From Opitutales bacterium (GTDB lineage: Bacteria; Verrucomicrobiota; Verrucomicrobiia; Opitutales; PNEW01): a stretch of 32,000 bases of DNA. The stretch lies in the NCBI GenBank assembly GCA_965219535.1, contig CBDCNV010000001.1, positions 270,001 to 302,000 of the forward strand, written 5' to 3'. The notes beneath the pieces were generated by a model that was not told where the DNA came from, searched no databases, and saw only the letters and a program-made list of their open reading frames with translations. Of this stretch, positions 361-15,315 are shown in pieces (positions within the stretch are counted from its first letter, which is position 1; each line of letters starts with the position of its first letter). The position numbers and the translations under genes are program-made.

Positions 361-417
361 TGGGTAAAATATATAATAGAGGGAGATTCAATCTAGTGAA
401 TTACATAGATTGAAAAC

Positions 418-1430: not shown

Positions 1431-1459
1431 GAATGCTGAATAAAGTTAAACCGACGTCG

Positions 1460-2569
1460 TCAAGTTAATGGAATTTGCTCAACGATTTCCAAATCATAGC
1501 CATCGAGAGCGATGACCTTGCGGTGGGTACTGGATAGCAGTCTGATTTTTTTCAGGCCGAGTTCAGATAATATCTGGGCACCAATACCATAGTCGCGAAA
1601 GTCCATACGCGCGGGAGCTATTTTACCATTTTTTTCCTTACCTGTTTTCTCGACATTAAATCCACTATGAGGTTGTTCGAGGTAGAGTATGACCCCGTTC
1701 TTTTCTTTCGCGATCCATTCGAGAGAGGAAACGAGGGATTGATGACTATTCATATCGCGCGCTTGAAAAATATCACTCAGCAGGTTTTCACTGTGGACGC
1801 GCACAAGCGTTGGATCGGGACTGAGATTGCCAATGCTAAGTGCTATATGGTGGCGGCCATCAATTTTATTACGATAGACATGCAAATCAAACTTACCATA
1901 AGCGGAGGCGAAAGGTTGTTCAGTCAGCTTTTCGACGAGCTTTTCACGTTTGTGTCGATATTGGATAAGGTCGGCGATGGAGATCAGCTTAAGCCCTAAT
2001 TTTTCTTTAAATTTGATCAACGCGGGTAATCGTGCGCAGGTACCATCGTCGTTAAGGAGTTCACAAAGGACCCCACTCGGGTGCAGCCCAGCCAGGACAG
2101 CCAGATCAACGGCTGCCTCGGTGTGACCGGCGCGCTGGAGGACACCTCCCGGTTTTGCGCGCAAGGGAAAAACATGACCTGGTTGGACAAGATTTTCAGG
2201 ATGACTCTCTGGATTGGAGAGAATTTTAATTGTCGTCGCGCGATCAAAGGCACTGATACCGGTACTGATACCTTCCGCCGCGTCGACCGATATTGTAAAA
2301 TCGGTGCGATGGGATTCACGGTTATCGGGAACCATTTGGTTAATTCCTAAATGCTTAAGCTGGTGACTCGTGGTTGGGGCGCAAATGATACCGCTACAAT
2401 AACGAATCATAAGATTAATGGCTTCCGGAGTAACTTTAGAAGCAGCCATGATGAGGTCACCCTCGTTTTCACGAGTCTCATCATCGGTTACGATTACGAG
2501 CTTACCATCGGCAATGTCTTGAATTGCCTCTTCCACGGGATCGAAAGCATAATTTAAAGAATTATCCAC
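1460..2569 (-). CDS. ribBA: 3,4-dihydroxy-2-butanone-4-phosphate synthase fused to a degenerate GTP cyclohydrolase II-like domain (RibBX-like)
   Basis: 369 aa. The N-terminal half has the RibB signature (DDETRENEGDLIMAA...GHTEAAVDLA). The C-terminal half aligns to RibA (VRVHSE...DYGIGAQIL...), but the three Zn-ligand cysteine positions read N, M and S. Confidence 0.85.
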   Translation of the reverse strand: MDNSLNYAFDPVEEAIQDIADGKLVIVTDDETRENEGDLIMAASKVTPEAINLMIRYCSGIICAPTTSHQLKHLGINQMVPDNRESHRTDFTISVDAAEGISTGISAFDRATTIKILSNPESHPENLVQPGHVFPLRAKPGGVLQRAGHTEAAVDLAVLAGLHPSGVLCELLNDDGTCARLPALIKFKEKLGLKLISIADLIQYRHKREKLVEKLTEQPFASAYGKFDLHVYRNKIDGRHHIALSIGNLSPDPTLVRVHSENLLSDIFQARDMNSHQSLVSSLEWIAKEKNGVILYLEQPHSGFNVEKTGKEKNGKIAPARMDFRDYGIGAQILSELGLKKIRLLSSTHRKVIALDGYDLEIVEQIPLT

Positions 2570-2796
2570 GGCTATTAATTAATCTTAATTTCAGTAACAA
2601 AAAGGAATATTTTTACCCTATAAATCGTATATCCTTTGATTTAAAAGTAAATCACGGAAAAACATAACTCCAATTTTCAAGAATAGTTATATTCGCCATT
2701 AAAGGGTAGGAAAATGCAAGGAATCGATAAATTGACTTTCTTTATTGCGGAAAAACTTAATTATTCATTGTTTAAGAAAACCTGACTTAATCAAAT

Positions 2797-3768
2797 ATGA
2801 ATAAAGTTCACGTCCTCCTTTTACACAGACCTGATAGAGCCGGCATATGGGGAAATGAAGCTATTGAAGAAATAGGCAAACGTCATGATTTGCGCTACTT
2901 CAATTATGACGAACCCGTAAAACCACAATTTGAGGGAATCGATGTCGTGGTACAACTGAACTACAGCACACAGGAAATGATGGATGCCGCGAGTGAGGCC
3001 GGAGTAAAATTCTGGCAGTTGCAAAGTGTCGGGTTTGAGCACTTCGATTTGGAATACATGAAAAGCAAAGGAATCCCCGTGTCCAATTGCCCGGGTATTT
3101 TCAGCAGCGTAGCGCTCGCGCAAACGGCAATGATGTTTATTCTTATGTCAGCCCATAAATTTAATGAAGCTCAGGAGCATATCAGAGAGAGTGTGGTCGG
3201 GATGATCAAGGGATACGACCTCGTTGGGCGAACCTTGGCGCTTGTCGGATTTGGCGCCAGCGCCCAGGCACTGGCGCGCCGAGCTAAACCGTTCGGGATG
3301 ATTATAAAGGCCATTGATGTTCGTCCTATCGAGCAGGAAGTGCTGGATGAAATTCAACTTGATTTTCTCGGCACACCGGACGATCTCGATCAGCTCTGCG
3401 CCGATTGTGATTACCTTTCACTCCACCTTCATCTCAATAAGGAGACCGAAAAAATAATTAACGCCCACCGGATCTCTTTAATGAAAACGGACGCATGGCT
3501 CATTAATATCGCCCGCGGAGGGCTGGTCGATCAGGACGCTTTATTCGAAGCTTTACTCTCTAATAAAATCGGCGGTGCGGGGCTTGATGTCTTCGCCCAA
3601 GAACCTGTTGATCCGACAGAGCCGGTATTAGCACTGCCTAATGTTTTTGCCTTGCCGCATACCGCGGGTGGCACTGATGGCACGGCCAGGAATCGTGCCG
3701 TCTGCGCCGCTACAAACTGCGATCGCATAGCTGAAGGTCTGGATCCGCTTTACCGCATCGACCAGTAA
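2797..3768 (+). CDS. D-isomer-specific 2-hydroxyacid dehydrogenase family protein (paralog 1)
   Basis: 323 aa. Dinucleotide-binding stretch LALVGFGASAQALARRA. Catalytic-triad context NIARGGLVD ... DVFAQEP ... LPHTAGGT (Arg/Glu/His). Confidence 0.8.
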   Translation: MNKVHVLLLHRPDRAGIWGNEAIEEIGKRHDLRYFNYDEPVKPQFEGIDVVVQLNYSTQEMMDAASEAGVKFWQLQSVGFEHFDLEYMKSKGIPVSNCPGIFSSVALAQTAMMFILMSAHKFNEAQEHIRESVVGMIKGYDLVGRTLALVGFGASAQALARRAKPFGMIIKAIDVRPIEQEVLDEIQLDFLGTPDDLDQLCADCDYLSLHLHLNKETEKIINAHRISLMKTDAWLINIARGGLVDQDALFEALLSNKIGGAGLDVFAQEPVDPTEPVLALPNVFALPHTAGGTDGTARNRAVCAATNCDRIAEGLDPLYRIDQ

Positions 3769-4770
3769 ATGTTTAAAGTTGCCCATATCGCGAACGACAA
3801 CCACCCATTGCCGGACTGGGTGAGAGAAAAGTTTGAAAAGGCTGGCATTGATTATGTGTTCCACGATTGCCACACACGCGAGGACTTGGAAAAATATGCC
3901 GGCGATGCCGATGTTCTATTTTTAACATCCTCTCGTAAAGGGTTGGTGGTAGAAGAAAATATGGATATCTTCAAAAAGATGGGGTCGGTCATTAAATGCG
4001 GGAGTGGTACCGACAACATCGACCACGACGCCTGTACGAAAAGAGGAATTATTGTCGCGCATACCCCGGATGATCCAACGGAACCGACGAGCGACCACAT
4101 CATTTCTTTGCTCTTTACCGCGGTGCGGCAAACGGCCCGACAAGATCGGTTAATTCGTCGTGGTATATGGAGTGCCCAGGAAGCTTTACCCCTCGGGCAA
4201 TTTACGGGAGCTGATCTGGGCCTTATCGGTTTCGGGCGAATCGGCAAGGCGATCACGAGAAAGCTCTCGGGATTTGCGATGAATATTCGTGTTTTCGATC
4301 CCTATCTGGATGAGGAGACGATAAAATCACTGGGGTGCACGAAGGTAGAATTGAACGAGCTGTTGAAAGTTTCACAGTATGTCTTGACCGTATGCCCCCT
4401 GAATAAAGAAACCCGTGGCATCATAGGGGAGGAGGAACTTCAATTGATGAGACGGGACGCAGTCCTCGTCAACGGCGCGCGCGCGGGTATTGTAAATGAA
4501 GAAGCTTTGAAAAAAACCCTTCGCGAAGGAAGAATTATTGCAGCGGCATTTGATGTCCTGGAAAATCACCCCCTTAAAGCCGACGATGAATATCTCACTT
4601 TTGAAAATATGAATTTTACTCCACATTTAGGTGGTTATCACCATGACTATCCGGATGCGATCTATACCACCAGCGTCGAGGTCATTATCGAGATGTCAAA
4701 AATGCATCTTCCTAAATGGATCGCAAACAAAGGCGTCGTTCCCAAATGGGAGATGCGGGAAAGCGTGTAA
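3769..4770 (+). CDS. D-isomer-specific 2-hydroxyacid dehydrogenase family protein (paralog 2)
   Basis: 333 aa. GLIGFGRIGKAI (GxGxxG), VNGARAGIV, DVLENHP, TPHLGG. Its start codon directly abuts the upstream stop (TAAATG at 3766-3771). Confidence 0.8.
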   Translation: MFKVAHIANDNHPLPDWVREKFEKAGIDYVFHDCHTREDLEKYAGDADVLFLTSSRKGLVVEENMDIFKKMGSVIKCGSGTDNIDHDACTKRGIIVAHTPDDPTEPTSDHIISLLFTAVRQTARQDRLIRRGIWSAQEALPLGQFTGADLGLIGFGRIGKAITRKLSGFAMNIRVFDPYLDEETIKSLGCTKVELNELLKVSQYVLTVCPLNKETRGIIGEEELQLMRRDAVLVNGARAGIVNEEALKKTLREGRIIAAAFDVLENHPLKADDEYLTFENMNFTPHLGGYHHDYPDAIYTTSVEVIIEMSKMHLPKWIANKGVVPKWEMRESV

Positions 4771-4834
4771 GGGTGAATGGGTGTAAGCGAAAATGCGGAA
4801 ATACGGGAATGAAATAATGGAGTAAAATATAAAT
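4771..4834 (+). repeat. Degenerate 8-nt periodic purine-rich tract (consensus about G-N-G-R-R-A-A-T, 6-8 units)
   Basis: Units read in phase: gggtgaat gggtgtaa gcgaaaat gcggaaat acgggaat gaaataat ggagtaaa atataaat. Begins immediately after the stop at 4770. Confidence 0.6.
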
Positions 4835-4874
4835 TTCTTAATCAGATCGAGCAGGTAATTCAGGATATAATATA

Positions 4875-5786
4875 ATGGCATATAAATATACGGTTGTTTG
4901 CGATACCTTGGGTTTTTTAGGTTATGACGTTCTGGAGCAACCCGAGGAGATACTTAAGACGATAAAAGATGCAGGTTATGACGGGGCGGATTTACCGGGC
5001 GCACCGGACAGGGCGGATACAAAACAATTGCGTGGAATTATGGATACACTTGAGTTGGAAGTTCCGGAAGTCCTTGGGGCATGGGCTTATTTCCATGGCG
5101 GCGAGGACAGGGATCTGGCTGGCGACAACGGGGAAGCCCGTCAAAGAGGAATTAAGTATGCCAAGAAGGCGATAGACTATTCCGCCGAACTGGGTGCTAG
5201 CTTCTTCGAAATATGTGCGGCGCAGCCCCCTGTTTACCAAGTTCCCTTTCCGAAGCTACCCATTGATACTTTAAAAAAGAATTTTATCGACGCCTTACAG
5301 GAGATTTGCCCTTACGCAGAAGAGCGGGGAATAGCGATACTCCTTGAACCTTTGAACTGCTACGAAGCCTATCCCGGTGTTTTGACGACGATTGATGAAG
5401 CCTTAAACATTATCGAGGAGTCCGGTATGAAAAATCTGGGCATCCAACCCGATATATTTCATATGAATGTCGGTGAGGGGTCTATACCCGATGCCATCCG
5501 GGCGGCGGGTGAGAAGGTCAAACACTTTCACATGAATGAAACTAATCACCGGGAGCATGGAACAGGCCATGCTGATTACCCGGCGATAATCAAAGCGCTG
5601 AAGGATATTAACTACAACGGCTATATAGCATTTTATATGCCGTTCACTACACAGGAAATCTTTAATATGGCAGGAGAAGGTTATGGTCAATCAAGTGGAG
5701 ATGAAAGGGAGTCCAAGCGGCCTGATTTAAAAGCGTATCTTGAAAGACCGCTGAAGTTATTTAAAGAGTTGGAAGCTAATGGTTAA
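4875..5786 (+). CDS. Xylose isomerase-like TIM-barrel protein (sugar phosphate isomerase/epimerase family), paralog 1
   Basis: 303 aa. Shares the motifs LLEPLNCYEAYPG, GIQPDIFHMNVGE and HFHMNETNH (candidate Glu/Asp/His/Glu metal ligands) with the ORFs at 5810 and 9279. Confidence 0.8.
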   Translation: MAYKYTVVCDTLGFLGYDVLEQPEEILKTIKDAGYDGADLPGAPDRADTKQLRGIMDTLELEVPEVLGAWAYFHGGEDRDLAGDNGEARQRGIKYAKKAIDYSAELGASFFEICAAQPPVYQVPFPKLPIDTLKKNFIDALQEICPYAEERGIAILLEPLNCYEAYPGVLTTIDEALNIIEESGMKNLGIQPDIFHMNVGEGSIPDAIRAAGEKVKHFHMNETNHREHGTGHADYPAIIKALKDINYNGYIAFYMPFTTQEIFNMAGEGYGQSSGDERESKRPDLKAYLERPLKLFKELEANG

Positions 5787-5809
5787 GTAGCGCACAACGA
5801 ACAGGTATT

Positions 5810-6703
5810 ATGGCTTTTAAATATTCAGTATCCGGACTTACACTCGGCTTTTTGGGGTATGATTTTTCGGAAGAACCGGAATTTATTTTGAAGGCAATCA
5901 AGCATGCGGGTTTTGATGGCATCGATGTTTTTGACAATCCGAAAAATCGCAACACGGAACAGATACGACGAGTTGCAGATTCTCTCAACCTGGAGGTCCC
6001 AGAAGTTTTGGGCAATTGGGGTGGTGATGGCAGAGACCTGGCAGGAGGTGATGATGACACGAGAAAAAAAGCAGTTGAGTATGCAAAGGAAGCTATTGAT
6101 TACTGTGTCGATTTGAATTCTCCATTTTTTGGGTTTTGTCTTCCCCAGCCCGGTGTAACCGAGGCGCCCATTTCAGTAATGTCCGTCGAAACTCTGAAAA
6201 GCAATCTTGTCGACGGACTCAATGAAATATGTGCTTACGCTGCCGAACGAAAGGTAACTGTCGCCGTTGAACCATTGAATTGCTATGAAAGCTATCCCTG
6301 TTTAATGAATACGCTTAATGAAACGATGCATGTAATCAGGGAGCTGGATTGCGATAACATCGGTCTTCAACCGGACGTATTTCATATGAATGTCGGAGAA
6401 AAATCGATTACCGATGCAATTAAAACATTTAAAGACCACATCGTGACATTTCACATGAACGAAACCAATCACTTCAAGTTCGGGAGCGGCCATGCCAATG
6501 TAAAGGCAATTATGCAAGCATTGAAAGAGATAGAATTTTCCGGTTACATGACGATATACATGCCATTAATGACGAGGGAACTTTTCAACATGGCCTTTCG
6601 CGGTATTGTCGACGAAGGCGCGACGCCCGTGAAAGCCAATTTGGAGGCCGTTCTCACTGAAACAATGGAGTATATCAAATGCGTGGAGGCTGAGATCGGG
6701 TAA
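5810..6703 (+). CDS. Xylose isomerase-like TIM-barrel protein, paralog 2
   Basis: 297 aa. Collinear with paralog 1 (MAFKYSVSG.., VEPLNCYESYP, GLQPDVFHMNVGE, FHMNETNH). Lies 23 nt downstream of paralog 1. Confidence 0.8.
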   Translation: MAFKYSVSGLTLGFLGYDFSEEPEFILKAIKHAGFDGIDVFDNPKNRNTEQIRRVADSLNLEVPEVLGNWGGDGRDLAGGDDDTRKKAVEYAKEAIDYCVDLNSPFFGFCLPQPGVTEAPISVMSVETLKSNLVDGLNEICAYAAERKVTVAVEPLNCYESYPCLMNTLNETMHVIRELDCDNIGLQPDVFHMNVGEKSITDAIKTFKDHIVTFHMNETNHFKFGSGHANVKAIMQALKEIEFSGYMTIYMPLMTRELFNMAFRGIVDEGATPVKANLEAVLTETMEYIKCVEAEIG

Positions 6704-6719
6704 GAAAGCAATTGTAGTT

Positions 6720-6763
6720 CGATGCAGGTGTGGATGCGTGTAGAAGGAAATGAAATAATGGAG
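6720..6763 (+). repeat. Second, shorter copy of the 8-nt periodic element
   Basis: cgatgcag gtgtggat gcgtgtag aaggaaat gaaataat ggag. Shares the exact 15-mer AATGAAATAATGGAG (6749-6763) with 4808-4822. Confidence 0.5.
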
Positions 6764-6802
6764 GGACGTGCTCCGTCGCGTCCGCGGAACGGGACGAGGA
6801 CG
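6764..6802. terminator. GC-rich hairpin cluster between convergent genes (candidate bidirectional terminator)
   Basis: GGACG (6764-6768, 6792-6796, 6798-6802) can pair alternatively with CGTCC (6779-6783). There is an 8-bp palindrome TCCGCGGA at 6781-6788. On the minus strand the structure is followed by a T-rich run (CTCCATTATTTCATTT). No strong canonical U-tract. Confidence 0.3.
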
Positions 6803-6806
6803 AAGA

Positions 6807-7769
6807 TTACTGGTTATTGCAGACCTCGGCAACCAGTTCTTGTGCACGTTGCAAACTCGTCGATTTTTCCTCCAGCATGCGTCGCCGAACTTCAACGAGG
6901 GTTTCCTTGTCCGCGTGGGTCGTTACGTAGAGCGCACGACTGTTGATGATCGCATCAATCTGCTGGGCAACGCGCCGGACATCGGGCCCCAGGGTGTGCG
7001 CTAGCCAATTTACGGTGTCATTTATCGCTTGATACCGAAAATCGCACGAAAGCCTGATCCGGTCGGAACGATTGATGAGTCCACGATGAGCGGTAACATG
7101 ACTGAAGAAGATGGCATCACCGGGATGGTAATCGCTTGTTGCCCAGGTGAACTTATCCATGTCCAGTCCAAACCCCTTGGACCGTGATTCATCAGAAGAG
7201 CTGGGATTGGAACCCGCATGTTCCATAAATCCCATTTTGTGAGAACCTGGAACAATAGCGAGACCTCCTAATTTCTCGTCAATGTCCATGAGTGGTAACC
7301 AGCAGGTATAAAATCTATCTGCCCCATACCCAAGATTCTTTGCGCCGTCCTGGTGCGCGCCAACGCCGATATCATCAGAAGCGTCCGGGTCGGGGCACAT
7401 GACACGGATGAGACGCTGTTCCCATACTTGAACCGGTGCTCCGAAAACACTTTCCATGAGGGAAACAATTTCCAGTGATTGAGCGAAACTATTAAAAGAG
7501 TCGAGTCTTACGACTTTATCATAGTACTGCATATATTCCTCTTCCGTGGGGTGGGGCCCTCCGCTCCACAGGGGGTCATTCGTGCTGTCGTCTTCAATAA
7601 TATTATGCTCTTTCAGAATCGCCATGATCTCTCTTTTTACCTGTAAGGCGCGATCGGGATCGACGAGGCGCCGCAGCAAGAGATAACCCTCTTCATTGAG
7701 AATCTCCACAAGGCGCTTACTATCGCCCATGTGTTCCGTTGAATCTTTCAACTGAAGATAGCCGCTCAT
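6807..7769 (-). CDS. Phytanoyl-CoA dioxygenase (PhyH) family Fe(II)/2-oxoglutarate-dependent oxygenase
   Basis: 320 aa. H-x-D facial-triad context GVGAHQDG and distal His in GDAIFFSHVTAHRG. Overall PhyH-like layout. Confidence 0.7.
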   Translation of the reverse strand: MSGYLQLKDSTEHMGDSKRLVEILNEEGYLLLRRLVDPDRALQVKREIMAILKEHNIIEDDSTNDPLWSGGPHPTEEEYMQYYDKVVRLDSFNSFAQSLEIVSLMESVFGAPVQVWEQRLIRVMCPDPDASDDIGVGAHQDGAKNLGYGADRFYTCWLPLMDIDEKLGGLAIVPGSHKMGFMEHAGSNPSSSDESRSKGFGLDMDKFTWATSDYHPGDAIFFSHVTAHRGLINRSDRIRLSCDFRYQAINDTVNWLAHTLGPDVRRVAQQIDAIINSRALYVTTHADKETLVEVRRRMLEEKSTSLQRAQELVAEVCNNQ

Positions 7770-7789
7770 CGATGTCTCAACACTTCACC

Positions 7790-8554
7790 CTATGGTCGAT
7801 TGAATGCATCTACCGCGGCTTTGATAGCATTTCTAACTAAATAATAGTCGGGACCGTAACCTAAAAAGGTCATACCCTGTGCCTGACGTTGTTTTAAATC
7901 CTCGGGAGAGTTAGATCCGATTCCAATCGCGACTCCATTCTTTTTACCGATTTCCAGCGCACGTTCTATTACTGCGTCTGTTTCCGGGAATGGCATTTCC
8001 ATAGGGTTAAACCCCATGGAGAAACACAAATCCCACATTCCCAGGTAAAGGGCGTCAAGACCAGGGACAGAAGTAATCTCTTCCAGATTCTCTACGGCTT
8101 CTTTTGTCTCGAGGAGTCCAGTGACGAGAATATTGTCATTGGCCCGTTTAATATAATCATCTTCGTCGAGGGTATACTTGCTGGCACGCATCGGACCCCA
8201 TCCACGCGTACCGTGCGGAGGGTAGCGAGTAGCGGCCACAATTTTTTCTACTTCAGCTGCGGTTTTTAGCATGGGAACAAGAATTCCCATTGCGCCCATA
8301 TCCAAGGCTCGCTGAATAAAGACGTAGTCATGTGAAGGGACGCGGACAATAGGTATAGTCTCCGTGCCCTTTATGGCCATTAGCATGTGTTCAATTTCAG
8401 CTGAATCCAGACCGTTGTGTTCGGTCTCAATGACCAGATAGTCGAGGCCGACATTGGATAAAAGTTCAGCAAGGTTGGGGCTGCCTAAACCCATGAAAGT
8501 GCCGAGAGCCGCTTGACCCGCATTTAATTTTTCTCGTGTCCTGTTTGTCTGCAT
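7790..8554 (-). CDS. HpcH/HpaI family 2-keto-3-deoxy/4-hydroxy-2-oxoacid aldolase
   Basis: The family signature begins at MQTNRTREKLNAGQAALGTFMGLGSPNLAELLSNVGLDYLVIETEHNG. I chose the ATG at complement 8552-8554. The track ORF start at 8614 would overlap the upstream gene by 34 nt and add 20 non-conserved residues. Confidence 0.8.
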   Translation of the reverse strand: MQTNRTREKLNAGQAALGTFMGLGSPNLAELLSNVGLDYLVIETEHNGLDSAEIEHMLMAIKGTETIPIVRVPSHDYVFIQRALDMGAMGILVPMLKTAAEVEKIVAATRYPPHGTRGWGPMRASKYTLDEDDYIKRANDNILVTGLLETKEAVENLEEITSVPGLDALYLGMWDLCFSMGFNPMEMPFPETDAVIERALEIGKKNGVAIGIGSNSPEDLKQRQAQGMTFLGYGPDYYLVRNAIKAAVDAFNRP

Positions 8555-8580
8555 AAGTTTTAATAGAATTAACGTTTTAT

Positions 8581-9111
8581 TTAATAATCTTCCAACGCTT
8601 TTGCCGTCGCCCATTCATAATGATGCGGCGCCTGTGCCCCGGTTCCCATTTCGTTCAATTCGAGCAGATTGCCATCCGGATCATAGAAAAACAATACATG
8701 CCAGTCTCCCTCTCCGGAGAAACTTACGGGGGGCGAGACAAACTCAACCCCTTCTGCTTTGAGCCTTTCGTAAGTGGCCGGCACATTTTCTACCCCAAAA
8801 CAGAAATGGGCGCTGGGCACATGGTGAAGAGGATAGCGATCGACTGGACTTTCGGGATTTATCCATTGTATAATATCAAAGGTAAAGCCGGGTCCTTTAT
8901 TTCTATTGTGACCATGGACCCCGCCTTTGGGACGCAGGCGGTACTCACGCATGTGCACCTTGGGCATGTTTACCATTACCGATATTGGCCCGTCGTTGTG
9001 TTCTTCCGGGGATACGACTTCAAGCCCCAGCAAGTCACGATAGAAGTGGAGCGACTTTTCAATATCTTTTACCATGACAGCTACATGGTCCATTGTAATT
9101 ACCATACTCAT
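8581..9111 (-). CDS. VOC (glyoxalase/bleomycin-resistance/extradiol dioxygenase) family protein
   Basis: 176 aa. MDHVAVMVKDIEKSLHFYRDLLGLEV ... FFYDPDGNLLEL is the typical paired beta-alpha-beta-beta-beta VOC signature. Confidence 0.75.
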   Translation of the reverse strand: MSMVITMDHVAVMVKDIEKSLHFYRDLLGLEVVSPEEHNDGPISVMVNMPKVHMREYRLRPKGGVHGHNRNKGPGFTFDIIQWINPESPVDRYPLHHVPSAHFCFGVENVPATYERLKAEGVEFVSPPVSFSGEGDWHVLFFYDPDGNLLELNEMGTGAQAPHHYEWATAKALEDY

Positions 9112-9278
9112 TTTATGATCCCTTTCTTTAATATTTAGATTAATTAATAAATACCTCTAATTAAATTATTCCATAAAGTGAAAAATTAATGGGGGTTTTT
9201 TTCAATAGGATTCATATTATAGGTAAATATGCCCTTGGATTAAATAAGTTGATTACAACAAGCGAATCCGCGGTGTCT

Positions 9279-10253
9279 TCAATAAACTTTATCGGTCTCT
9301 CCTGGTTCCTTGGTTTCTTCATCAGTAATGTAGGAAGCACTCGTGCTATATATAGATCGTTGTTTGTCGACGGACCTTTCAATTGCTTTCAGAAAATTTA
9401 ACTGCTTCTCTAAAACTTCCTGTAAATCCGGCTTTGATGTAGAATCATCACTGCTTTCCCGATAAGACAATTCTCGAGGGATCAAGGGCATATAGATAGA
9501 GAGGTAACCATCAAAATTAATTTCCTTAAGAATCTTTATAATCGTGTAATAGTCAGCGTGACCCTCGCCCAAATAATAATGATTGGTTTCATTCATGTGC
9601 ATGACTTTGATTCGCTTACCTGCCGCGATGAGGGCATCGGGGATGGAAGCCTCGGCGATATTCATGTGATAAATATCGGGTTGAATGCCCAGATTGGGCA
9701 GTCCCAGATCATTTATCAGGTTGATTGCATCGTAGACCGAAGTTAGGACCCCGGGATAAGCTTCATAGCGATTCAATGGCTCGAAGAGGACAGTAATATT
9801 TTGCCTGGCTGCATATTCGCAGATTTCCCTTGAGGATTCGAGAAAGTTACTTCTCAAAGTATGAAGCGGCAACTTGGGAAAGGGAATTTGCGGGATAGGA
9901 GTTTGCGCGGAGCAAATTTCAAAATACCGCGCACCGAGGGTAGAAGCGAGGTCGATACAGGTTTTACCATATTCGATTCCTCTCCTTCTTGCTTTCGCAT
10001 CATCACCCGCAAGGTCTCTGCTTTCTCCCGCGTGATGAAAAGCCCAGGCTCCCTGCACTTCAGCCACCTCGAGCCCGGTAGTGCCGATAAACTGCATGAG
10101 TTCACGGACATTGATTTTCTGCGGATCACCGGGAATATCGACTGCGTCAAACCCCGCGCCCTTGATAGCCTCAAGAACCATTTGCGGAGTCTCAATTATA
10201 CTATATCCGAGTCTTCTTACGGTGTCAGAAATGGCAGAATATTTAAACGGCAT
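9279..10253 (-). CDS. Xylose isomerase-like TIM-barrel protein, paralog 3 (about 25-aa C-terminal tail)
   Basis: 324 aa. MPFKYSAISD.., FEPLNRYEAYPG, GIQPDIYHMNIAE, VMHMNETNH. Collinear with the ORFs at 4875 and 5810. Confidence 0.8.
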   Translation of the reverse strand: MPFKYSAISDTVRRLGYSIIETPQMVLEAIKGAGFDAVDIPGDPQKINVRELMQFIGTTGLEVAEVQGAWAFHHAGESRDLAGDDAKARRRGIEYGKTCIDLASTLGARYFEICSAQTPIPQIPFPKLPLHTLRSNFLESSREICEYAARQNITVLFEPLNRYEAYPGVLTSVYDAINLINDLGLPNLGIQPDIYHMNIAEASIPDALIAAGKRIKVMHMNETNHYYLGEGHADYYTIIKILKEINFDGYLSIYMPLIPRELSYRESSDDSTSKPDLQEVLEKQLNFLKAIERSVDKQRSIYSTSASYITDEETKEPGETDKVY

Positions 10254-10267
10254 CTGACGGATTCAGG

Positions 10268-11308
10268 TTAAGCAGAATTCACCTCTGCTGGATTTCCGGT
10301 TTTCATTGATTCATAAACGGCATCGATGACCCGCATATTACCAAGACTGAATTCAGGCGGTATACGATGCGGGATGTTCGTCTCGAGGCACTCAACCAAG
10401 TGGTCGAGCTGCATGGCAAACTGGTCAATGGGAGTGAAGCTGAGAATTTCCTTTTCGAAGTTGTCATAAAATATCTCGAGAGTAGCTGGTAAATCTTCCT
10501 TCTCGACAAATTCCTGTTCTCTTACACTGCGTTGATCAAAGGGCAAATCAGCGCGTATCCAACCGTTCATGCCGAGCACCTCTGTTGCCTGGCAGTAACC
10601 GTACTGGTAGCTGGAGGTTAATTTTGCGGTCGCGCCCCCGGGAAACTCAAGCATGATCGCCGCCGACATATCGGCATCGGATGCTTCAATATAATTTCCT
10701 ACTGCATAAACCCGATGGGGCTCCTCCCCAATGATAAGTCGCGAGAAATGTATGATGTAGGAGGCGGTGTCATAAACGGATCCCCCGCCGCGTTGGCGTT
10801 CATATCGCCAGTTGTCGGGCTCGGCAAAGCGAACGAGGGGAGATGAAAAAGTGCTTTGAACCGACATAACATTGCCAATGCGGCCGGAGTCGATGATCTC
10901 TTTTATACTTACATGTTGTGGATCATGTCTCCATTTGAATCCCTCCGCTAACAAGACATTATTTCCGCGTGCGGCGGCAATCATCGCTTCGCACTCAGGG
11001 GCATTACTGGAGATGGGTTTTTCACAGAGGATGGCTCGGACATTTCCCGAAACTGCAGCGGCCACACTAACTTCCGCGTGCGACGGCCCCCAGGTGGCTA
11101 CAATAACAATATCGAGCTGCTCTTTTTTGAGAAAAGCATCCAGATCGGTATAGCGATTTGAAATATTGAATCGGTCGCCAAATACAGCCAGGGCATCAGG
11201 CGAAAGATCACAGACCGCAGTTAATTCAACTTTTGCATTATTCTGGCAAGTTACGGCATGATCCAGGGCGATAGTCCCAGTGCCAATTATTCCTGCTTTT
11301 AAAACCAT
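10268..11308 (-). CDS. Gfo/Idh/MocA family NAD(P)-dependent oxidoreductase
   Basis: 346 aa. N-terminal Rossmann stretch AGIIGTGTIALDHA. Conserved LCEKPIS (EKP) motif. Confidence 0.85.
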   Translation of the reverse strand: MVLKAGIIGTGTIALDHAVTCQNNAKVELTAVCDLSPDALAVFGDRFNISNRYTDLDAFLKKEQLDIVIVATWGPSHAEVSVAAAVSGNVRAILCEKPISSNAPECEAMIAAARGNNVLLAEGFKWRHDPQHVSIKEIIDSGRIGNVMSVQSTFSSPLVRFAEPDNWRYERQRGGGSVYDTASYIIHFSRLIIGEEPHRVYAVGNYIEASDADMSAAIMLEFPGGATAKLTSSYQYGYCQATEVLGMNGWIRADLPFDQRSVREQEFVEKEDLPATLEIFYDNFEKEILSFTPIDQFAMQLDHLVECLETNIPHRIPPEFSLGNMRVIDAVYESMKTGNPAEVNSA

Positions 11309-11336
11309 GATGGTGCTTATCGAAATTTAAAATGAA

Positions 11337-12083
11337 CTACATTGTGGTATATCCACCATCAGCAACCATCACTGATCCGGTAACAAAGGATGCTTCATCG
11401 CTGGCGAGGAAAAGCACGGCGCGTGCCACCTCGATTGGTTCCGCGAAACGCTTTTGCACATTTAAGTTGTAATAGGGCTCAAGTTTTTCTTTGGGAATGC
11501 CCTGGATTAAAGGGGTATTCATCGATCCCGGGCAAATGGCATTAACGCGAATATTGTCGGGGGCGTGGTCGATGGCCATGGATCGCACCAGCCCGATGAC
11601 ACCGTGTTTACTCGCGTTATAAGATGCCTGCATGCCATTGCCTACTAATCCCGAAAGAGATGATACACAAATAATATTACCGCCGCCGTTTTTTTTCATC
11701 TGGGGGATCGCATATTTTGAGCAGAAAAACATGCTCTTTAAATTTGTGTCGAGGACAAAGTCCCACTCATCTTCGGTTGTCTCGACAATGTTCTTATTGA
11801 CTTGAACACCGACGTTATTGACAAGGATATCCAGTCTTCCGAACTGCTTCCTGGCCACGTGAACCATATTTTCTGCATCCACTTCTTTTTGCACGTCTGA
11901 ATGGATAAATGTTGCTTCACCTGTAGTTTCATGAATTTTCGCGGCCGTTTCCTCTCCTGCTTTTTGATTTATATCAGCAACAATGATCTTCGCCCCTTCT
12001 GAAGCGAAGAGAATGGCCAACGATTCACCTAACCCCATCCCGGCCCCGGTAATAATGGCAACTTTGTCTATTAGGCGCTTCAT
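11337..12083 (-). CDS. Short-chain dehydrogenase/reductase (classical SDR)
   Basis: 248 aa. ITGAGMGLGE (TGxxxGxG), NNVG, and catalytic S...YNASKHG (YxxxK). Confidence 0.9.
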   Translation of the reverse strand: MKRLIDKVAIITGAGMGLGESLAILFASEGAKIIVADINQKAGEETAAKIHETTGEATFIHSDVQKEVDAENMVHVARKQFGRLDILVNNVGVQVNKNIVETTEDEWDFVLDTNLKSMFFCSKYAIPQMKKNGGGNIICVSSLSGLVGNGMQASYNASKHGVIGLVRSMAIDHAPDNIRVNAICPGSMNTPLIQGIPKEKLEPYYNLNVQKRFAEPIEVARAVLFLASDEASFVTGSVMVADGGYTTM

Positions 12084-12274
12084 TGGATGACAAGTGATAG
12101 CACTTTAAGTCTCAGGGCGAAAGTTATTATTTCCGAAACCTGATAATTTATTGTCTTCGCGCAGAAATAATTGGATCGCTACCTGATTTTGAGTCAATAG
12201 TGTTTAAGTTCGTGAACATTAAGCAGTCACTCACCTTTTCATCAGTTACATCCTTGCTGCTTAGAACTAAAAAT

Positions 12275-12320
12275 ATAGCTTATCCCGATAAACTAATAGC
12301 TACCCCGATACCCCGAAATA
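12275..12320. promoter_or_regulatory. Direct repeats ATAGCT(T)A(T/C)CCCGATA spaced 21 bp apart, plus a third CCCCGAAATA half-unit, in a divergent promoter region
   Basis: 12275-12290 ATAGCTTATCCCGATA, 12296-12310 ATAGCTACCCCGATA, 12311-12320 CCCCGAAATA. They lie between the divergent SDR operon and the MFS gene. Confidence 0.3.
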
Positions 12321-12488
12321 TATGGTGAAATCCATAAACATTAAATTGCCGTCATTAGGTGCTGTCACGGCATTCGGGGGTAGTGCGAATGGGAGCGGAG
12401 TTGTAATGTATGCCAGGAACCTGATCATTCGTCATTTGTATACGCTTCGTTCAGACCGTATTGAAAAGGGAAGAGGGATTAATTCATC

Positions 12489-13649
12489 ATGAAAGACAAT
12501 ACGCTGCGTTTAGTCGTATTATTATTGATGAGTTGTTTGCCCCCTATTACGGGGGCGCTTGTGATTCCTGCTTTGCCAAAAATCCTGAATTCTTTTGAGG
12601 GTGAAGCGCATGCCGAATTGTTAGTCAGATTATTTTTAACCATGCCTTACCTTTTTACGGCGATTGGTGCACCGCTTGCGGGATTTATCATCGACCGATT
12701 TGGGCGTAAGCGATTACTTATCGGATCCGTTTTACTTTTTGGATTGAGCGGTACTACAGGTTGTTATCTGGATTCACTTTACATGCTGATTGCGGGAAGA
12801 GCAATTCTTGGATTGGCCGTGGGGGGGATCAGTACTGCGTGCATAGCCTTGATCGCGGATTACTATGAAAGCGAAAAACGTCAAAAAATCATAGGTATGC
12901 AGGTTTCCTGTATGAGCTTTTTCACGATGATATTTTTAGTTTTGGGTGGAGCACTGGCTGATTTCAGCTGGCGATATTCATTTTACTTATATGGCATCGC
13001 GTTTTTTTTCTTACCGGTGAGCTATTATTTCATTACCGAACCCCGTCGGGGAAAAACTCATGAAGTCAGTGAAAGTATACCTGTTAACGAGTTATTCCCC
13101 TATATAAAGATCATTTCTATCTATGGCCTGACTTTTATAATAACAGCGGCTTCATTCCTCACAGGGATTTTATTTCCCTTCTTTGCCGAGGAGTTATCAG
13201 TGACGAGTAGTACGCAATTAGGACTGTCAATGGCTTTGTCTACGCTTTGTATTACAATAGTTGCTTCACGTTATGGAATGATTAAAAGCAGATTCAGCTT
13301 TATCGGAATCATAACCGCTTCTATTTACTTAACTTCTCTCGGATTTATTGTCCTCTACTTATCGACAAATTTTACACTGGCGATCTTAGGATTGCTTTTT
13401 ATGTCGATTGGAATGGCGCTATTTTTACCAAACATTAACCTCTGGGTGAATACGGTATCACCGGAAGCTTATCGCGGCAGAGCGATTGGAGGTCTCACGA
13501 CCTGTCATTTTTTAGGAAGATTTTTTTCACCGTTTATCGCTCAACCGTTAACCGATCAATTTGGTCTATCTACAACATTCGGGATTGTAAGTGGATTTTT
13601 ATTAATTTTCGGCACTGTAATTTACTTTGTCAGTTTGCGCATCCGCTAA
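12489..13649 (+). CDS. Major facilitator superfamily transporter, substrate unknown
   Basis: 386 aa and highly hydrophobic, with about 12 predicted helices. MFS loop motif GFIIDRFGRKRLL between TM2 and TM3. Confidence 0.8.
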   Translation: MKDNTLRLVVLLLMSCLPPITGALVIPALPKILNSFEGEAHAELLVRLFLTMPYLFTAIGAPLAGFIIDRFGRKRLLIGSVLLFGLSGTTGCYLDSLYMLIAGRAILGLAVGGISTACIALIADYYESEKRQKIIGMQVSCMSFFTMIFLVLGGALADFSWRYSFYLYGIAFFFLPVSYYFITEPRRGKTHEVSESIPVNELFPYIKIISIYGLTFIITAASFLTGILFPFFAEELSVTSSTQLGLSMALSTLCITIVASRYGMIKSRFSFIGIITASIYLTSLGFIVLYLSTNFTLAILGLLFMSIGMALFLPNINLWVNTVSPEAYRGRAIGGLTTCHFLGRFFSPFIAQPLTDQFGLSTTFGIVSGFLLIFGTVIYFVSLRIR

Positions 13650-15183: not shown

Positions 15184-15315
15184 GAGGGTAATTATTTTCA
15201 GATACAATCTTCGTTTACCAAATCCAACGCAAATTAAGATTCGTGTATAGCGATTTAATTCGCTTAAAAATCTCAATGAAGAAAAAGAGACGCTTCTTCG
15301 AAAACAGAAACAATA

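What the first reader, a model, noticed from the sequence alone, without database searches (positions are those of the whole stretch)
2797..13649. Eleven-gene oxidative catabolic island with no kinase, hydrolase or regulator and an unknown substrate
Seen in sequence: two operons converge at 6703/6807, and an MFS gene diverges from the second operon. The gene set is two 2-hydroxyacid dehydrogenases, three xylose-isomerase-like TIM-barrel proteins, a PhyH-type Fe/2OG oxygenase, an HpcH-type aldolase, a VOC protein, a Gfo/Idh/MocA oxidoreductase, an SDR and an MFS transporter.

Established knowledge: a Gfo/Idh/MocA oxidoreductase paired with xylose-isomerase-like TIM-barrel proteins occurs in myo-inositol catabolism (IolG with IolE/IolH/IolI). 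The same pairing occurs in C-glycoside deglycosylation (DgpA with DgpB/DgpC) and in 3-keto-glycoside oxidation/beta-elimination routes. HpcH aldolases split 2-keto-3-deoxy acids into pyruvate plus an aldehyde.

Inference: this looks like a non-phosphorylative oxidise, isomerise or eliminate, then aldol-cleave route for a sugar, cyclitol or glycoside. The added PhyH oxygenase does not match any pathway I can name. No transcriptional regulator is encoded in or next to the island.
Basis: partly seen in the sequence, partly recalled or inferred. Interest (0 to 1): 0.65.

Follow-up and report, generated by a model that had tools for sequence, protein, structure and literature searches.

The report
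Kinase-free sugar-acid island with aldolase–oxygenase core
A marine Opitutales bacterium carries a real ten-enzyme oxidative sugar-breakdown island with an adjacent efflux-like transporter, and its conserved heart is an uncharacterised pyruvate aldolase fused in operon with an iron/2-oxoglutarate oxygenase, a pair shared by uncultured marine bacteria of seven phyla.

Summary
The gene inventory is confirmed. There are eleven ORFs, two convergent operons plus a divergent MFS gene, and no kinase, hydrolase, regulator or riboswitch. No enzyme reaches an equivalog cut-off for a characterised function.

The whole island is kept only in three near-identical Opitutales genomes. The PhyH oxygenase forms one tight orthologous group, essentially a single 50%-identity cluster among 1.84 billion representatives. 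In 38 of 45 loci from seven phyla it sits on the same strand as an HpcH class-II pyruvate aldolase. In 37 of those 38 the gap is under 110 nt.

A single TIM-barrel subfamily (24 of 45 loci) is ketose-3-epimerase-like but lacks the second catalytic Glu. Gfo, VOC and one 2-hydroxyacid dehydrogenase join the pair in other phyla. The other dehydrogenase clusters with HpcH aldolases in four unrelated genomes. The MFS is efflux-like and not co-conserved.

Best reading: a horizontally spread, non-phosphorylative route in which a 2-keto-3-deoxy acid sugar is de-blocked or hydroxylated by PhyH and split to pyruvate. The substrate is unknown. Methylated ulosonic acids of prasinophyte scales are the most interesting candidate. 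This is a new variant of a known kind.

The parts
2797..3768 (+). 2HDH1: D-isomer-specific 2-hydroxyacid dehydrogenase, glyoxylate/hydroxypyruvate-reductase-like
   Evidence: Pfam PF02826/PF00389. The best NCBIfam model is glyoxylate reductase at 158 bits against a cut-off of 455. 49% orthologs lie next to PhyH-HpcH-TIM in Lentisphaeria.
3769..4770 (+). 2HDH2: second 2-hydroxyacid dehydrogenase, start abutting the 2HDH1 stop
   Evidence: Pfam. Orthologs of 64-70% identity in Planctomycetota, a Clostridiales MAG and two metagenome contigs all lie in clusters with an HpcH-type aldolase plus SDR, ADH, Gfo or TIM genes.
4875..5786 (+). TIM1: xylose-isomerase-like TIM barrel of the 'MxFKY' subfamily
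   Evidence: Pfam PF01261. 48-54% identical to TIM2, TIM3 and to the TIM genes beside HpcH-PhyH in other phyla. The fourth ligand/base Glu of ketose 3-epimerases is replaced by invariant Tyr254.
5810..6703 (+). TIM2: most divergent paralog of the same TIM subfamily
   Evidence: It keeps E158, D193, H196 and H219 and carries a 4-residue deletion near position 72.
6807..7769 (-). PhyH-family Fe(II)/2-oxoglutarate oxygenase, defining gene of the conserved core
   Evidence: Pfam PF05721. Invariant H139-x-D141...H228 and R239. AF2 pLDDT 88, closest structure PtlH at 24% identity. One tight orthologous group.
7790..8554 (-). HpcH/HpaI-type class II (metal-dependent) pyruvate aldolase. The ORF runs to 8614 but the likely start is M21.
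   Evidence: Pfam PF03328. 31% identical to E. coli GarL with H50/R75/E153/D179 equivalents invariant. Adjacent to PhyH on the same strand in 38 of 45 orthologous loci.
8581..9111 (-). VOC/glyoxalase-fold protein, function open
   Evidence: Pfam PF00903. No informative PDB or NCBIfam relative. 67-71% orthologs lie divergent from the Gfo ortholog near HpcH-PhyH in Spirochaetia.
9279..10253 (-). TIM3: same TIM subfamily, partner of Gfo
   Evidence: Gfo-TIM3-HpcH-PhyH is a tight four-gene operon in Acidobacteriota. TIM3 is absent from the Sargasso SAG relative L005.
10268..11308 (-). Gfo/Idh/MocA NAD(P) sugar oxidoreductase
   Evidence: Pfam. The closest structures are aldose-aldose oxidoreductase, GFOR, sugar 3-ketoreductase and inositol dehydrogenases. 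No equivalog cut-off is met. 77% orthologs in Acidobacteriota and 58% in Spirochaetia.
11337..12083 (-). SDR, aldose-1-dehydrogenase-like
   Evidence: Pfam. It passes the NCBIfam subfamily model 'glucose 1-dehydrogenase' at 243 bits against 215. Homologs of 45-48% identity lie within 10 kb of the PhyH gene in one Acidobacteriota locus (adjacent, L028) and two Spirochaetia loci; orthology not established.
12084..12488 (.). Divergent intergenic spacer between the SDR operon and the MFS gene
   Evidence: No convincing ORF, regulator, riboswitch or enriched promoter/terminator motif.
12489..13649 (+). MFS transporter, doubtful member of the pathway
   Evidence: MFS_1. The best models are Tet(A)/Bcr/DHA1 efflux types. 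It is kept only in the three Opitutales loci. Its GC3 of 0.40 is host-like, against 0.46-0.54 for island genes.

Best explanation
The locus is a horizontally acquired, kinase-free oxidative catabolic island for an acidic or keto sugar.

Its conserved functional core is a translationally close pair. One member is a class II pyruvate aldolase (HpcH). The other is a dedicated Fe(II)/2-oxoglutarate oxygenase (PhyH). The pair is usually joined by one subfamily of ketose-3-epimerase-like TIM barrels.

Shown:
- The aldolase has a complete GarL-type active site.
- The oxygenase has a complete iron triad and a 2OG-binding Arg.
- The pair is co-inherited across seven phyla.

Inferred:
- A 2-keto-3-deoxy sugar acid is the common intermediate. 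It is either taken up as such or made by Gfo/SDR oxidation plus TIM-catalysed isomerisation or beta-elimination.
- PhyH acts on that anionic sugar directly before or after the aldolase. It hydroxylates a C-H so that a blocking substituent (most plausibly an O-methyl ether) leaves, or so that a needed hydroxyl is installed.
- HpcH then releases pyruvate plus an aldehyde or aldose.
- Gfo, SDR, the two 2-hydroxyacid dehydrogenases, the TIM paralogs and the VOC protein convert the fragments and stereoisomers into central metabolites without phosphorylation.
For: - Gene families are confirmed.
- HpcH keeps the H/R/E/D catalytic set of GarL. Its best models are HpaI, GarL and RhmA, all 2-keto-3-deoxy-acid aldolases.
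- PhyH has H139-x-D141, H228 and R239 invariant. It gives a confident DSBH model.
- PtlH is its nearest structure, and invariant R122 aligns with PtlH chain residue R120. I recall that residue as the binder of the substrate carboxylate.
- HpcH-PhyH are adjacent on the same strand in 38 of 45 orthologous loci from Verrucomicrobiota, Acidobacteriota, Chloroflexota, Latescibacterota, Lentisphaerota, Spirochaetota and Gemmatimonadota.
- Sugar-acid neighbours in other phyla include UxaA/GarD-type, enolase-type and UxuA-like dehydratases, an Amidohydro_2 lactonase-like gene, PfkB, rhaM, ABC sugar systems, sulfatases, GH32, GH95 and a BNR_2 sialidase-like protein.
- 2HDH2 orthologs cluster with HpcH aldolases in four of four unrelated contigs examined.
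- The SDR passes the glucose-1-dehydrogenase subfamily cut-off.
- Evidence for horizontal transfer: 72-83% amino-acid identity of PhyH, HpcH and Gfo between Opitutales and Acidobacteriota, island GC3 above the flanks, and the pair lying between restriction-modification genes in a Caldilineaceae genome.
- PhyH-family enzymes that O-demethylate a sugar ether are documented (PMC12709175).
Against: - No enzyme has a characterised ortholog, so every substrate statement is inference.
- The window island has no dehydratase or lactonase to make a 2-keto-3-deoxy acid from an aldose.
- It has no obvious importer. The MFS is efflux-like.
- It has no formaldehyde-handling gene.
- Similarity of this PhyH to the known O-demethylase PHYHD1 is weak and partial (profile E 8e-7).
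- The role of PtlH R117 is recalled, not verified, because the paper is not held.
- Neighbour genes differ between phyla and could reflect several different substrates.
- Many loci come from related MAGs, so the 38 of 45 count overstates independent events.
Confidence: 0.45

Rival explanations
1. The eleven genes are not one pathway. Two or three independent modules happen to be juxtaposed in this Opitutales lineage: a 2HDH-TIM module, the Gfo-TIM-HpcH-PhyH module, and an unrelated efflux MFS. They may act on different substrates.
For: The full set is kept only in three genomes with about 90-96% identical proteins. 2HDH2 and the MFS never accompany PhyH elsewhere. The two operons are convergent, so they are separately transcribed. 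The MFS has host-like composition and an efflux-type profile. TIM3 is missing in L005.
Against: TIM1/2 on the + operon and TIM3 on the - operon belong to the same subfamily that accompanies HpcH-PhyH in other phyla. 2HDH1 lies in the PhyH-HpcH-TIM operon of Lentisphaeria. 2HDH2 orthologs always sit with an HpcH-type aldolase. The ten enzyme genes have mean GC3 about 0.49 against about 0.42 for the flanking genes, with overlapping ranges.
Confidence: 0.2
2. The island is a variant of cyclitol (myo-, scyllo- or methyl-inositol) catabolism. Gfo acts as inositol dehydrogenase. A TIM barrel acts as inosose dehydratase or isomerase. PhyH demethylates or ring-opens. HpcH cleaves the opened chain.
For: The best NCBIfam model for Gfo is IolG at 145 bits. 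All three TIMs hit IolO (5-keto-L-gluconate epimerase of the Thermotoga inositol route) at about 125-132 bits. Inositol dehydrogenases are among the PDB hits.
Against: IolG and IolO scores are far below their cut-offs of 355 and 300. There are no IolD, IolB, IolC, IolJ or IolA families in the island. The IolI match is marginal at 30 bits. Neighbours in other phyla are sugar-acid dehydratases and lactonase-like genes, not iol genes.
Confidence: 0.1
3. The island is a 3-keto-glycoside type route, as for levoglucosan, C-glycosides or 3-keto-disaccharides. Gfo oxidises C3 of a glycoside or anhydrosugar. TIM barrels perform beta-elimination and hydration. The remaining genes are downstream clean-up.
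For: The Gfo plus multiple TIM barrel arrangement matches LgdA/B1/B2/C and DgpA/B/C (established knowledge). YcjR, a 3-keto-D-glucoside 4-epimerase, is among the PDB hits for the TIMs. Loss of the second catalytic Glu fits a one-base eliminase or isomerase better than an epimerase.
Against: Levoglucosan dehydrogenase scores 83 bits against 650, and glycoside and disaccharide 3-dehydrogenase about 34 against 750 and 650. This scheme does not explain the invariant pyruvate aldolase-PhyH pair. That pair also occurs with no Gfo or TIM nearby, as in Caldilineaceae.
Confidence: 0.12
4. PhyH and HpcH act on a non-carbohydrate 2-oxo acid. For example, C4 hydroxylation of an aliphatic or amino-acid-derived 2-oxo or 2-hydroxy acid is followed by retro-aldol cleavage. 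The sugar-type genes are incidental.
For: The hydroxylate-then-retro-aldol logic is established, for example trimethyllysine hydroxylase followed by an aldolase. The nearest structural relatives of PhyH act on non-sugar acids or amino acids: PtlH, GriE and proline hydroxylases. The two 2-hydroxyacid dehydrogenases would feed 2-oxo acids. The pair stands alone in some genomes.
Against: Recurrent sugar-type partners occur in at least five phyla. No aminotransferase or acyl-CoA genes are present.
Confidence: 0.1

Closest known systems
Non-phosphorylative sugar-acid routes ending in an HpcH-family aldolase (E. coli galactarate/glucarate GarD-GarL-GarR-GarK; L-rhamnonate RhmD-RhmA)
   Same: A class II pyruvate aldolase with the same catalytic residues. 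2-keto-3-deoxy acid logic. Dehydrogenases for the C2-C4 fragment. A GarD/UxaA-type dehydratase sits directly after HpcH-PhyH in Caldilineaceae.
   Different: Only 31% identity to GarL, and far below all equivalog cut-offs. No dehydratase, GarR-type reductase or glycerate kinase in the window. An obligatory Fe/2OG oxygenase partner that none of these pathways has.
PtlH (1-deoxypentalenic acid 11-beta-hydroxylase) and SnoK/SnoN, PhyH-fold 2OG oxygenases
   Same: Closest sequence and structural relatives. Same iron triad positions. R122 aligns with a PtlH active-site Arg. SnoK/SnoN act on a sugar moiety (entry titles).
   Different: 17-25% identity. Those are antibiotic tailoring enzymes inside biosynthetic clusters. 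This family carries a conserved extra C-terminal helical region (about residues 255-319). It sits in catabolic sugar contexts.
PHYHD1/FJS 2'-O-methylribonucleoside demethylases (PMC12709175)
   Same: Members of the PhyH family that remove an O-methyl group from a sugar by 2OG-dependent hydroxylation. This is a direct chemical precedent for the proposed de-blocking role.
   Different: Only a weak partial profile match to PHYHD1 (E 8e-7 over residues 135-250). Their substrates are neutral nucleosides. No aldolase partnership is reported.
Ketose 3-epimerases and relatives (D-tagatose/D-psicose 3-epimerase, TM0416/IolO, YcjR)
   Same: Best sequence and structural matches of all three TIM barrels (TM-score about 0.7-0.8). 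E158, D193 and H219 ligands and H196 are kept.
   Different: The second catalytic and metal-binding Glu (MEPF motif) is replaced by invariant Tyr254. The substrate-binding Arg is replaced by His. There is a conserved MxFKY N-terminus. Scores reach less than half of the equivalog cut-offs.
Gfo/Idh/MocA plus TIM-barrel systems (IolG/IolE/IolI, LgdA/LgdB, DgpA/DgpB/DgpC)
   Same: A pairing of an NAD(P) sugar oxidoreductase with xylose-isomerase-like TIM barrels. Gfo-TIM3 are adjacent here and in Acidobacteriota.
   Different: No equivalog model is met. Other pathway-specific genes are absent. Those systems contain neither a pyruvate aldolase nor a 2OG oxygenase.

Membership tests
HpcH/HpaI class II pyruvate aldolases | Full-length PF03328 domain | tested here: met
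   119 bits, profile positions 3-221 of 221.
HpcH/HpaI class II pyruvate aldolases | Catalytic His, Arg and metal-binding Glu/Asp (GarL H50, R75, E153, D179; numbering from memory) | tested here: met
   H46, R71, E149 and D175 (numbered from M21) are invariant in window HpcH, eight orthologs and E. coli GarL.
HpcH/HpaI class II pyruvate aldolases | Orthology to a characterised member (HpaI, GarL, RhmA) | tested here: not met
   167, 162 and 129 bits against cut-offs of 369, 393-407 and 441. 31% identity to GarL.
PhyH-type Fe(II)/2OG oxygenases | HxD...H iron triad and 2OG C5-carboxylate Arg about 11 residues after the distal His | tested here: met
   H139, D141, H228 and R239 are invariant in 28 sequences. 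The triad aligns with that of PtlH.
PhyH-type Fe(II)/2OG oxygenases | Double-stranded beta-helix fold | tested here: met
   AF2 pLDDT 88. Foldseek top hits are PtlH, SnoN, AndA and proline hydroxylases with probability 1.0.
PhyH-type Fe(II)/2OG oxygenases | Orthology to any characterised enzyme (PtlH, EctD, PhnY, PAHX, PHYHD1) | tested here: not met
   The best NCBIfam model scores 62 bits against 550. PtlH is 24% identical. PHYHD1 and PAHX give only weak profile hits. The next full-length representative drops to 38% identity or less.
Ketose 3-epimerases (DTE/DPE family) | Glu-Asp-His-Glu metal site with two catalytic Glu on opposite faces | tested here: not met
   E158, D193 and H219 are kept. 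The second Glu aligns with invariant Tyr254 in HMMER alignments to 8xix and 4q7i and in 28 family members.
Ketose 3-epimerases (DTE/DPE family) | TIM-barrel fold closest to DTE/DPE | tested here: met
   Foldseek E 2e-19, TM 0.73-0.80 to D-tagatose, D-allulose and L-ribulose 3-epimerases.
myo-Inositol catabolism (iol) | IolG equivalog plus IolE, IolD, IolB, IolC, IolJ and IolA | tested here: not met
   IolG model scores 145 bits against 355. No ThDP, kinase, class II FBA-type or aldehyde dehydrogenase families in the island.
Levoglucosan / 3-keto-glycoside / C-glycoside routes | LGDH or glycoside 3-dehydrogenase equivalog | tested here: not met
   83 bits against 650, 34 against 750 and 34 against 650.
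Levoglucosan / 3-keto-glycoside / C-glycoside routes | TIM barrels orthologous to LgdB1/B2 or DgpB/DgpC | not testable with these tools
   No model or structure of these appeared among the PDB or NCBIfam hits. Absence from the hit lists is not a direct comparison.
PHYHD1/FJS sugar O-demethylases | Close sequence relationship and formaldehyde-releasing activity on an O-methyl sugar | tested here: inconclusive
   Weak partial profile match to PHYHD1. Activity cannot be tested here.

The most novel reading that the evidence does not exclude
The HpcH-PhyH pair may be the first gene-level catabolic route for 2-keto-3-deoxy ulosonic or ulosaric acids (Kdo, 5-O-methyl-Kdo, Dha).

These sugars are already 2-keto-3-deoxy acids. 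That would explain why the island has no dehydratase or kinase. PhyH would oxidatively remove the 5-O-methyl group or a similar block. HpcH would act as the long-orphan Kdo-type aldolase.

The window's lineage peaks after the Sargasso Sea spring bloom, and the paper's authors link it to eukaryotic-phytoplankton carbohydrates, prasinophytes among them (PMC6003095). Prasinophyte scales are built from 5-O-methyl-Kdo and Dha (PMC10762512).

In PhyH-less, probably anaerobic relatives of the 2HDH2-HpcH cluster, a MtaA-like methyltransferase and a corrinoid protein may play the demethylase role.

If true, this would also assign a function to part of the unexplained PhyH expansion in sponge symbionts (PMC3909097).
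Probability: 0.13. Interest if true: 0.85.

Novelty: new variant of a known kind. Interest (0 to 1): 0.62.

Why it matters
- PhyH-domain oxygenases are the most over-represented protein family in some sponge symbionts, and their roles have been unknown for over a decade (PMC3909097).
- This locus singles out one sharply delimited PhyH orthologous group with a fixed enzymatic partner, a pyruvate aldolase. It also has a small set of recurring helpers. The open question becomes a two-enzyme in vitro experiment.
- The locus defines a ketose-3-epimerase-like TIM subfamily that lacks one catalytic Glu.
- It shows cross-phylum transfer of a carbohydrate module among uncultured marine bacteria.
- If the substrate is a methylated ulosonic acid, it would fill a gap in marine carbon cycling, namely the fate of prasinophyte scales and LPS-derived Kdo. 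It would also give a gene to an orphan aldolase activity.

Tried and rejected
- NCBIfam equivalog assignment for all ten enzymes: none reached cut-off except the SDR subfamily model.
- PDB sequence searches for VOC and for the BNR_2 neighbour gave only weak, uninformative relatives.
- Promoter and terminator scans did not exceed shuffled expectation. The convergent spacer has no significant hairpin (z 0.27). There were no Rfam hits.
- There was no plasmid match for the HpcH-PhyH DNA.
- My first greedy ORF clustering of neighbour loci was spoiled by spurious long ORFs in high-GC genomes. I replaced it with tblastn counts and database gene calls.
- Literature searches for a described PhyH+HpcH pathway, Kdo aldolase genes or Dha catabolism found nothing relevant.
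- The PtlH structure paper could not be read, so the role of PtlH R117 stays a recollection.
I rebuilt it from database hits.
- I rejected a homoprotocatechuate meta-cleavage remnant. No hydratase, isomerase or decarboxylase genes are present, and the VOC protein is a small single unit of 176 aa. I also rejected secondary-metabolite tailoring, because there are no biosynthetic core genes.

Full report
**1. Observation**

The eleven ORFs exist exactly where stated.
- Two D-2-hydroxyacid dehydrogenases: 2797-3768 and 3769-4770, + strand.
- Three xylose-isomerase-like TIM barrels: 4875-5786 and 5810-6703 on +, 9279-10253 on -.
- PhyH: 6807-7769, -.
- HpcH/HpaI: ORF 7790-8614, -.
- VOC: 8581-9111, -.
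- Gfo/Idh/MocA: 10268-11308, -.
- SDR: 11337-12083, -.
- MFS: 12489-13649, +.

The two operons converge at 6703/6807. The MFS gene diverges over a 405-nt spacer.

The flanks are housekeeping genes. On the left are nusB, ribH and ribBA. On the right are a TlpA-like thioredoxin, thiE, AmaP, Asp23, accC and accB. Further on come an ABC-2/GldG-like system, coaX, birA and nadC. There is no kinase, hydrolase or regulator. The whole window has no Rfam hit. The spacer holds nothing convincing.

Three corrections apply:
- Orthologs are 253-275 aa (most 257-258 aa) and begin at the position of M21. The aldolase is therefore probably 7790-8554, and it does not overlap the VOC gene.
- The MFS is DHA1/Tet(A)/Bcr-like rather than a sugar porter.
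- The SDR is the only enzyme to pass a curated NCBIfam cut-off. It scores 243 bits against 215 for the 'glucose 1-dehydrogenase' subfamily.

**2. Source and relatives**

A genome scan with a PhyH alignment found the whole island in three Opitutales genomes with 90-96% identical PhyH: L004 (OY829953.1), L005 and L006. L005 is the Sargasso Sea single-cell genome Opi.OSU.00C. This free-living Opitutae peaks near the surface in late spring. Its authors link it to carbohydrates of eukaryotic phytoplankton, prasinophytes among them (PMC6003095). L005 lacks TIM3.

**3. What is actually conserved**

PhyH homologs of 52-74% identity occur in MAGs of several other lineages. These are Acidobacteriota, Caldilineaceae (Chloroflexota), Latescibacterota, Lentisphaeria, Spirochaetia, Gemmatimonadaceae and 'Candidatus Moanabacter'. 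No cultured isolate is among them. Isolates such as Paenibacillus and Cohnella appear only at 27-35% identity.

Against 1.84 billion 50%-identity representatives, the family collapses to one full-length representative (P0084, 374 bits) plus fragments. The next full-length proteins score 170 bits or less at 38% identity or less. Only 16 representatives reach E 1e-30. It is therefore a sharply delimited orthologous group.

Co-occurrence across the 45 orthologous loci:

| Partner gene | Loci out of 45 | Lineages |
|---|---|---|
| HpcH ortholog (52-98% identity), same strand | 38 (gap 108 nt or less in 37) | all eight lineages, seven phyla |
| TIM subfamily | 24 | seven lineages |
| Gfo | 15 | Opitutales, Acidobacteriota 77%, Spirochaetia 58% |
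| VOC | 6 | Opitutales, Spirochaetia 67-71% |
| 2HDH1 | 5 | Opitutales, Lentisphaeria 49% |
| SDR (45-48% homologs outside Opitutales) | 6 | Opitutales, Acidobacteriota, Spirochaetia |
| 2HDH2 | 3 | Opitutales only |
| MFS | 3 | Opitutales only |

Acidobacteriota carry a tight Gfo-TIM-HpcH-PhyH operon. In one Caldilineaceae genome the pair stands alone between restriction-modification genes.

Three observations point to horizontal spread of the module:
- PhyH, HpcH and Gfo are 72-83% identical between Opitutales and Acidobacteriota.
- Island GC3 is 0.46-0.54, against 0.37-0.47 in the flanks.
- The MFS gene has GC3 0.40, like the host background.

**4. The individual enzymes**

*HpcH.* It aligns with E. 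coli GarL at 31% identity. The His, Arg, Glu and Asp catalytic and metal residues are invariant. Its best models and structures are HpaI, GarL and YfaU/RhmA. It is a competent class II pyruvate aldolase of unknown specificity.

*PhyH.* H139-x-D141, H228 and R239 are invariant. AlphaFold gives pLDDT 88. The nearest structures are PtlH (24% identity), then SnoN/SnoK, AndA, and proline and leucine hydroxylases. Invariant R122 aligns with PtlH chain residue R120. I recall this residue as native R117, the binder of the substrate carboxylate, but I could not verify that because the paper is not held. A conserved Arg-rich C-terminal helical extension (about residues 255-319) is specific to the family.

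*TIM barrels.* The three TIM barrels are paralogs of each other (40-51% identical; TIM2 is the most divergent), and TIM1 is 50-54% identical to the TIM genes next to HpcH-PhyH in other phyla. All share an MxFKY N-terminus. Their closest sequence and structural relatives are ketose 3-epimerases, TM0416/IolO and YcjR. However, the second catalytic and metal-binding Glu of the 'MEPF' motif aligns with an invariant Tyr254. A canonical two-base epimerase mechanism is therefore excluded. A one-base isomerase or eliminase, or a Tyr-assisted variant, is more likely. This last step is inference.

*Gfo.* It resembles aldose-aldose oxidoreductase, GFOR, a sugar 3-ketoreductase and inositol dehydrogenases at about 110-70 bits. 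It fails all equivalog models.

*VOC.* It has no informative relative.

**5. Context in other phyla**

Neighbours of the pair:

| Lineage | Neighbours of HpcH-PhyH |
|---|---|
| Caldilineaceae | UxaA/GarD-type dehydratase (SAF + GD_AH) directly downstream; PfkB; ABC sugar transporter genes; rhaM; three more PhyH genes |
| Lentisphaeria | enolase-superfamily dehydratase; Amidohydro_2 (lactonase-like) |
| Moanabacter | UxuA-like dehydratase |
| Gemmatimonadaceae | GH32; an SGSH-type sulfatase |
| Acidobacteriota | sulfatase |
| Spirochaetia | BNR_2 propeller with weak sialidase similarity, immediately downstream |
| Latescibacterota | a second HpcH, cupin, Rieske, amidohydrolases and five further PhyH genes |

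A second, shorter PhyH (277-282 aa) recurs in five lineages (Pfam checked for three members). Taken together this is sugar-acid catabolic company.

**6. The + strand operon**

2HDH2 has its own well-conserved family. Four contigs carrying 64-70% orthologs were examined: Planctomycetota L090, Clostridiales MAG L091, L092 and L093. All four carry an HpcH-type aldolase (31-38% identical in the three compared; another subfamily) together with SDR, ADH, Gfo or TIM genes, and no PhyH.
- L091 starts with an Apiosidase-family gene.
- L092 has GH127, UxaC and UxaE.
- L092 and L093 contain MtaA/CmuA-like (URO-D family) genes.
- L093 also has an MtgC-like corrinoid protein.

The URO-D proteins are only 25% identical to each other. 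Reading them as an anaerobic O-demethylase substituting for PhyH is therefore a lead, not a result. The analysis does show that 2HDH2 is functionally tied to HpcH-type aldolases. That link connects the two convergent operons of the window.

**7. Mechanism**

Best-supported reading (confidence about 0.45): a non-phosphorylative oxidative route in which a 2-keto-3-deoxy acid sugar is the hub.
- HpcH cleaves it to pyruvate plus an aldehyde or aldose. The active site is shown. The substrate class is inferred from family and neighbours.
- PhyH acts on the same anionic molecule immediately before or after. This is inferred from obligate adjacency and the conserved Arg. Most plausibly it hydroxylates a C-H so that a blocking group leaves or a required OH is created.
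- Gfo and SDR oxidise sugars or fragments.
- The TIM paralogs isomerise or eliminate next to a carbonyl.
- The two 2-hydroxyacid dehydrogenases interconvert 2-oxo and 2-hydroxy acids.
- The VOC role is open.

PhyH-family O-demethylation of a sugar ether has a published precedent in FJS/PHYHD1 (PMC12709175). This family is only distantly related to PHYHD1, however.

**8. Most novel reading**

The island lacks a dehydratase and a kinase. That would be expected if the substrate already is a 2-keto-3-deoxy acid. [quoted passage not shown] The Opi.OSU.00C lineage peaks in late spring, after the phytoplankton bloom; the paper names prasinophytes as dominant at the surface during late-winter mixing. 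I found no paper describing genes for Kdo or Dha catabolism. A methyl-Kdo demethylase plus Kdo-type aldolase is thus a coherent and testable hypothesis. I give it about 0.13 probability.

**9. Rivals**

- A mosaic of independent modules (0.2).
- A cyclitol route (0.1).
- A 3-keto-glycoside or levoglucosan-like route (0.12).
- A non-carbohydrate 2-oxo-acid hydroxylation and cleavage pair (0.1).

The inositol, levoglucosan and glycoside-3-dehydrogenase equivalog models all fail by wide margins.

**10. Novelty and significance**

All folds and the aldol-cleavage logic are known. Three things are new:
- A fixed aldolase-2OG oxygenase partnership.
- A Glu-less epimerase-like TIM subfamily.
- Cross-phylum distribution in uncultured marine bacteria.

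Sample labels (ROBB21, NGUY21) and the mix of taxa suggest that many of these bacteria are sponge-associated. That is my inference and is not verified. PhyH proteins are the most abundant Pfam family in Poribacteria, and their functions remain unknown (PMC3909097). This locus offers a concrete entry point.

This is a new variant of a known kind, with interest 0.62.

Noticed in passing
window 18403-21186 (-): A 927-aa ORF with no Pfam match. It lies directly upstream of a DUF4340 / ABC_transp_aux (GldG-like) / ABC-2 permease / ABC ATPase operon. It is a large uncharacterised protein, possibly part of that export system.
   Followed up: no
L005 (Opi.OSU.00C) about 7408-8657, compared with window 9279-10253: The Sargasso single-cell relative has Gfo followed almost directly by VOC. 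TIM3 is missing there, while TIM1 and TIM2 are kept. TIM3 may therefore be dispensable or redundant.
   Followed up: partly
L085 9201-20993 (Latescibacterota): HpcH-PhyH is followed by a second HpcH, a cupin, two Amidohydro_2 genes, a Rieske protein, a TIM barrel and five more PhyH paralogs in one direction. This is an unusually dense oxygenase array.
   Followed up: no
L002/L087 15102-18518 (Caldilineaceae): Three further PhyH genes sit next to an MFS transporter. One of them is fused to HEAT repeats (463-473 aa).
   Followed up: no
L087 11412-12518 compared with L002 11289-12521: The UxaA/GarD-type dehydratase downstream of HpcH-PhyH is intact in L002 (410 aa). In L087 it is split into 238-aa and 128-aa pieces. 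This may be a pseudogene or an assembly error.
   Followed up: no
L001 1-14496 (Caldilineaceae): The HpcH-PhyH pair sits alone between two Eco57I-like N6-methyltransferase/restriction genes, a HicAB toxin-antitoxin pair and an SNF2/PLD helicase. This is a defence or mobile-type neighbourhood consistent with horizontal transfer.
   Followed up: partly
L092 8703-9770; L093 7153-8325 and 17125-17760; L084 19241-20356: MtaA/CmuA-like (URO-D family) genes lie in or next to the PhyH-less 2HDH2-HpcH clusters. An MtgC-like corrinoid protein lies in L093. Another MtaA-like gene lies 9 kb from HpcH-PhyH in a spirochaete. This may be a corrinoid-dependent demethylation counterpart.
   Followed up: partly
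window 1-2800 and 14545-15276: No FMN riboswitch was detected near ribBA/ribH and no TPP riboswitch near thiE at Rfam gathering thresholds.
   Followed up: no
L091 1-748 and L092 10015-13677: 2HDH2-HpcH clusters in a Clostridiales MAG and an unassigned contig are flanked by an Apiosidase-family gene and by GH127 + UxaC + UxaE. These are enzymes typical of pectin or rhamnogalacturonan-II breakdown, which releases Kdo, Dha, apiose and aceric acid.
   Followed up: no
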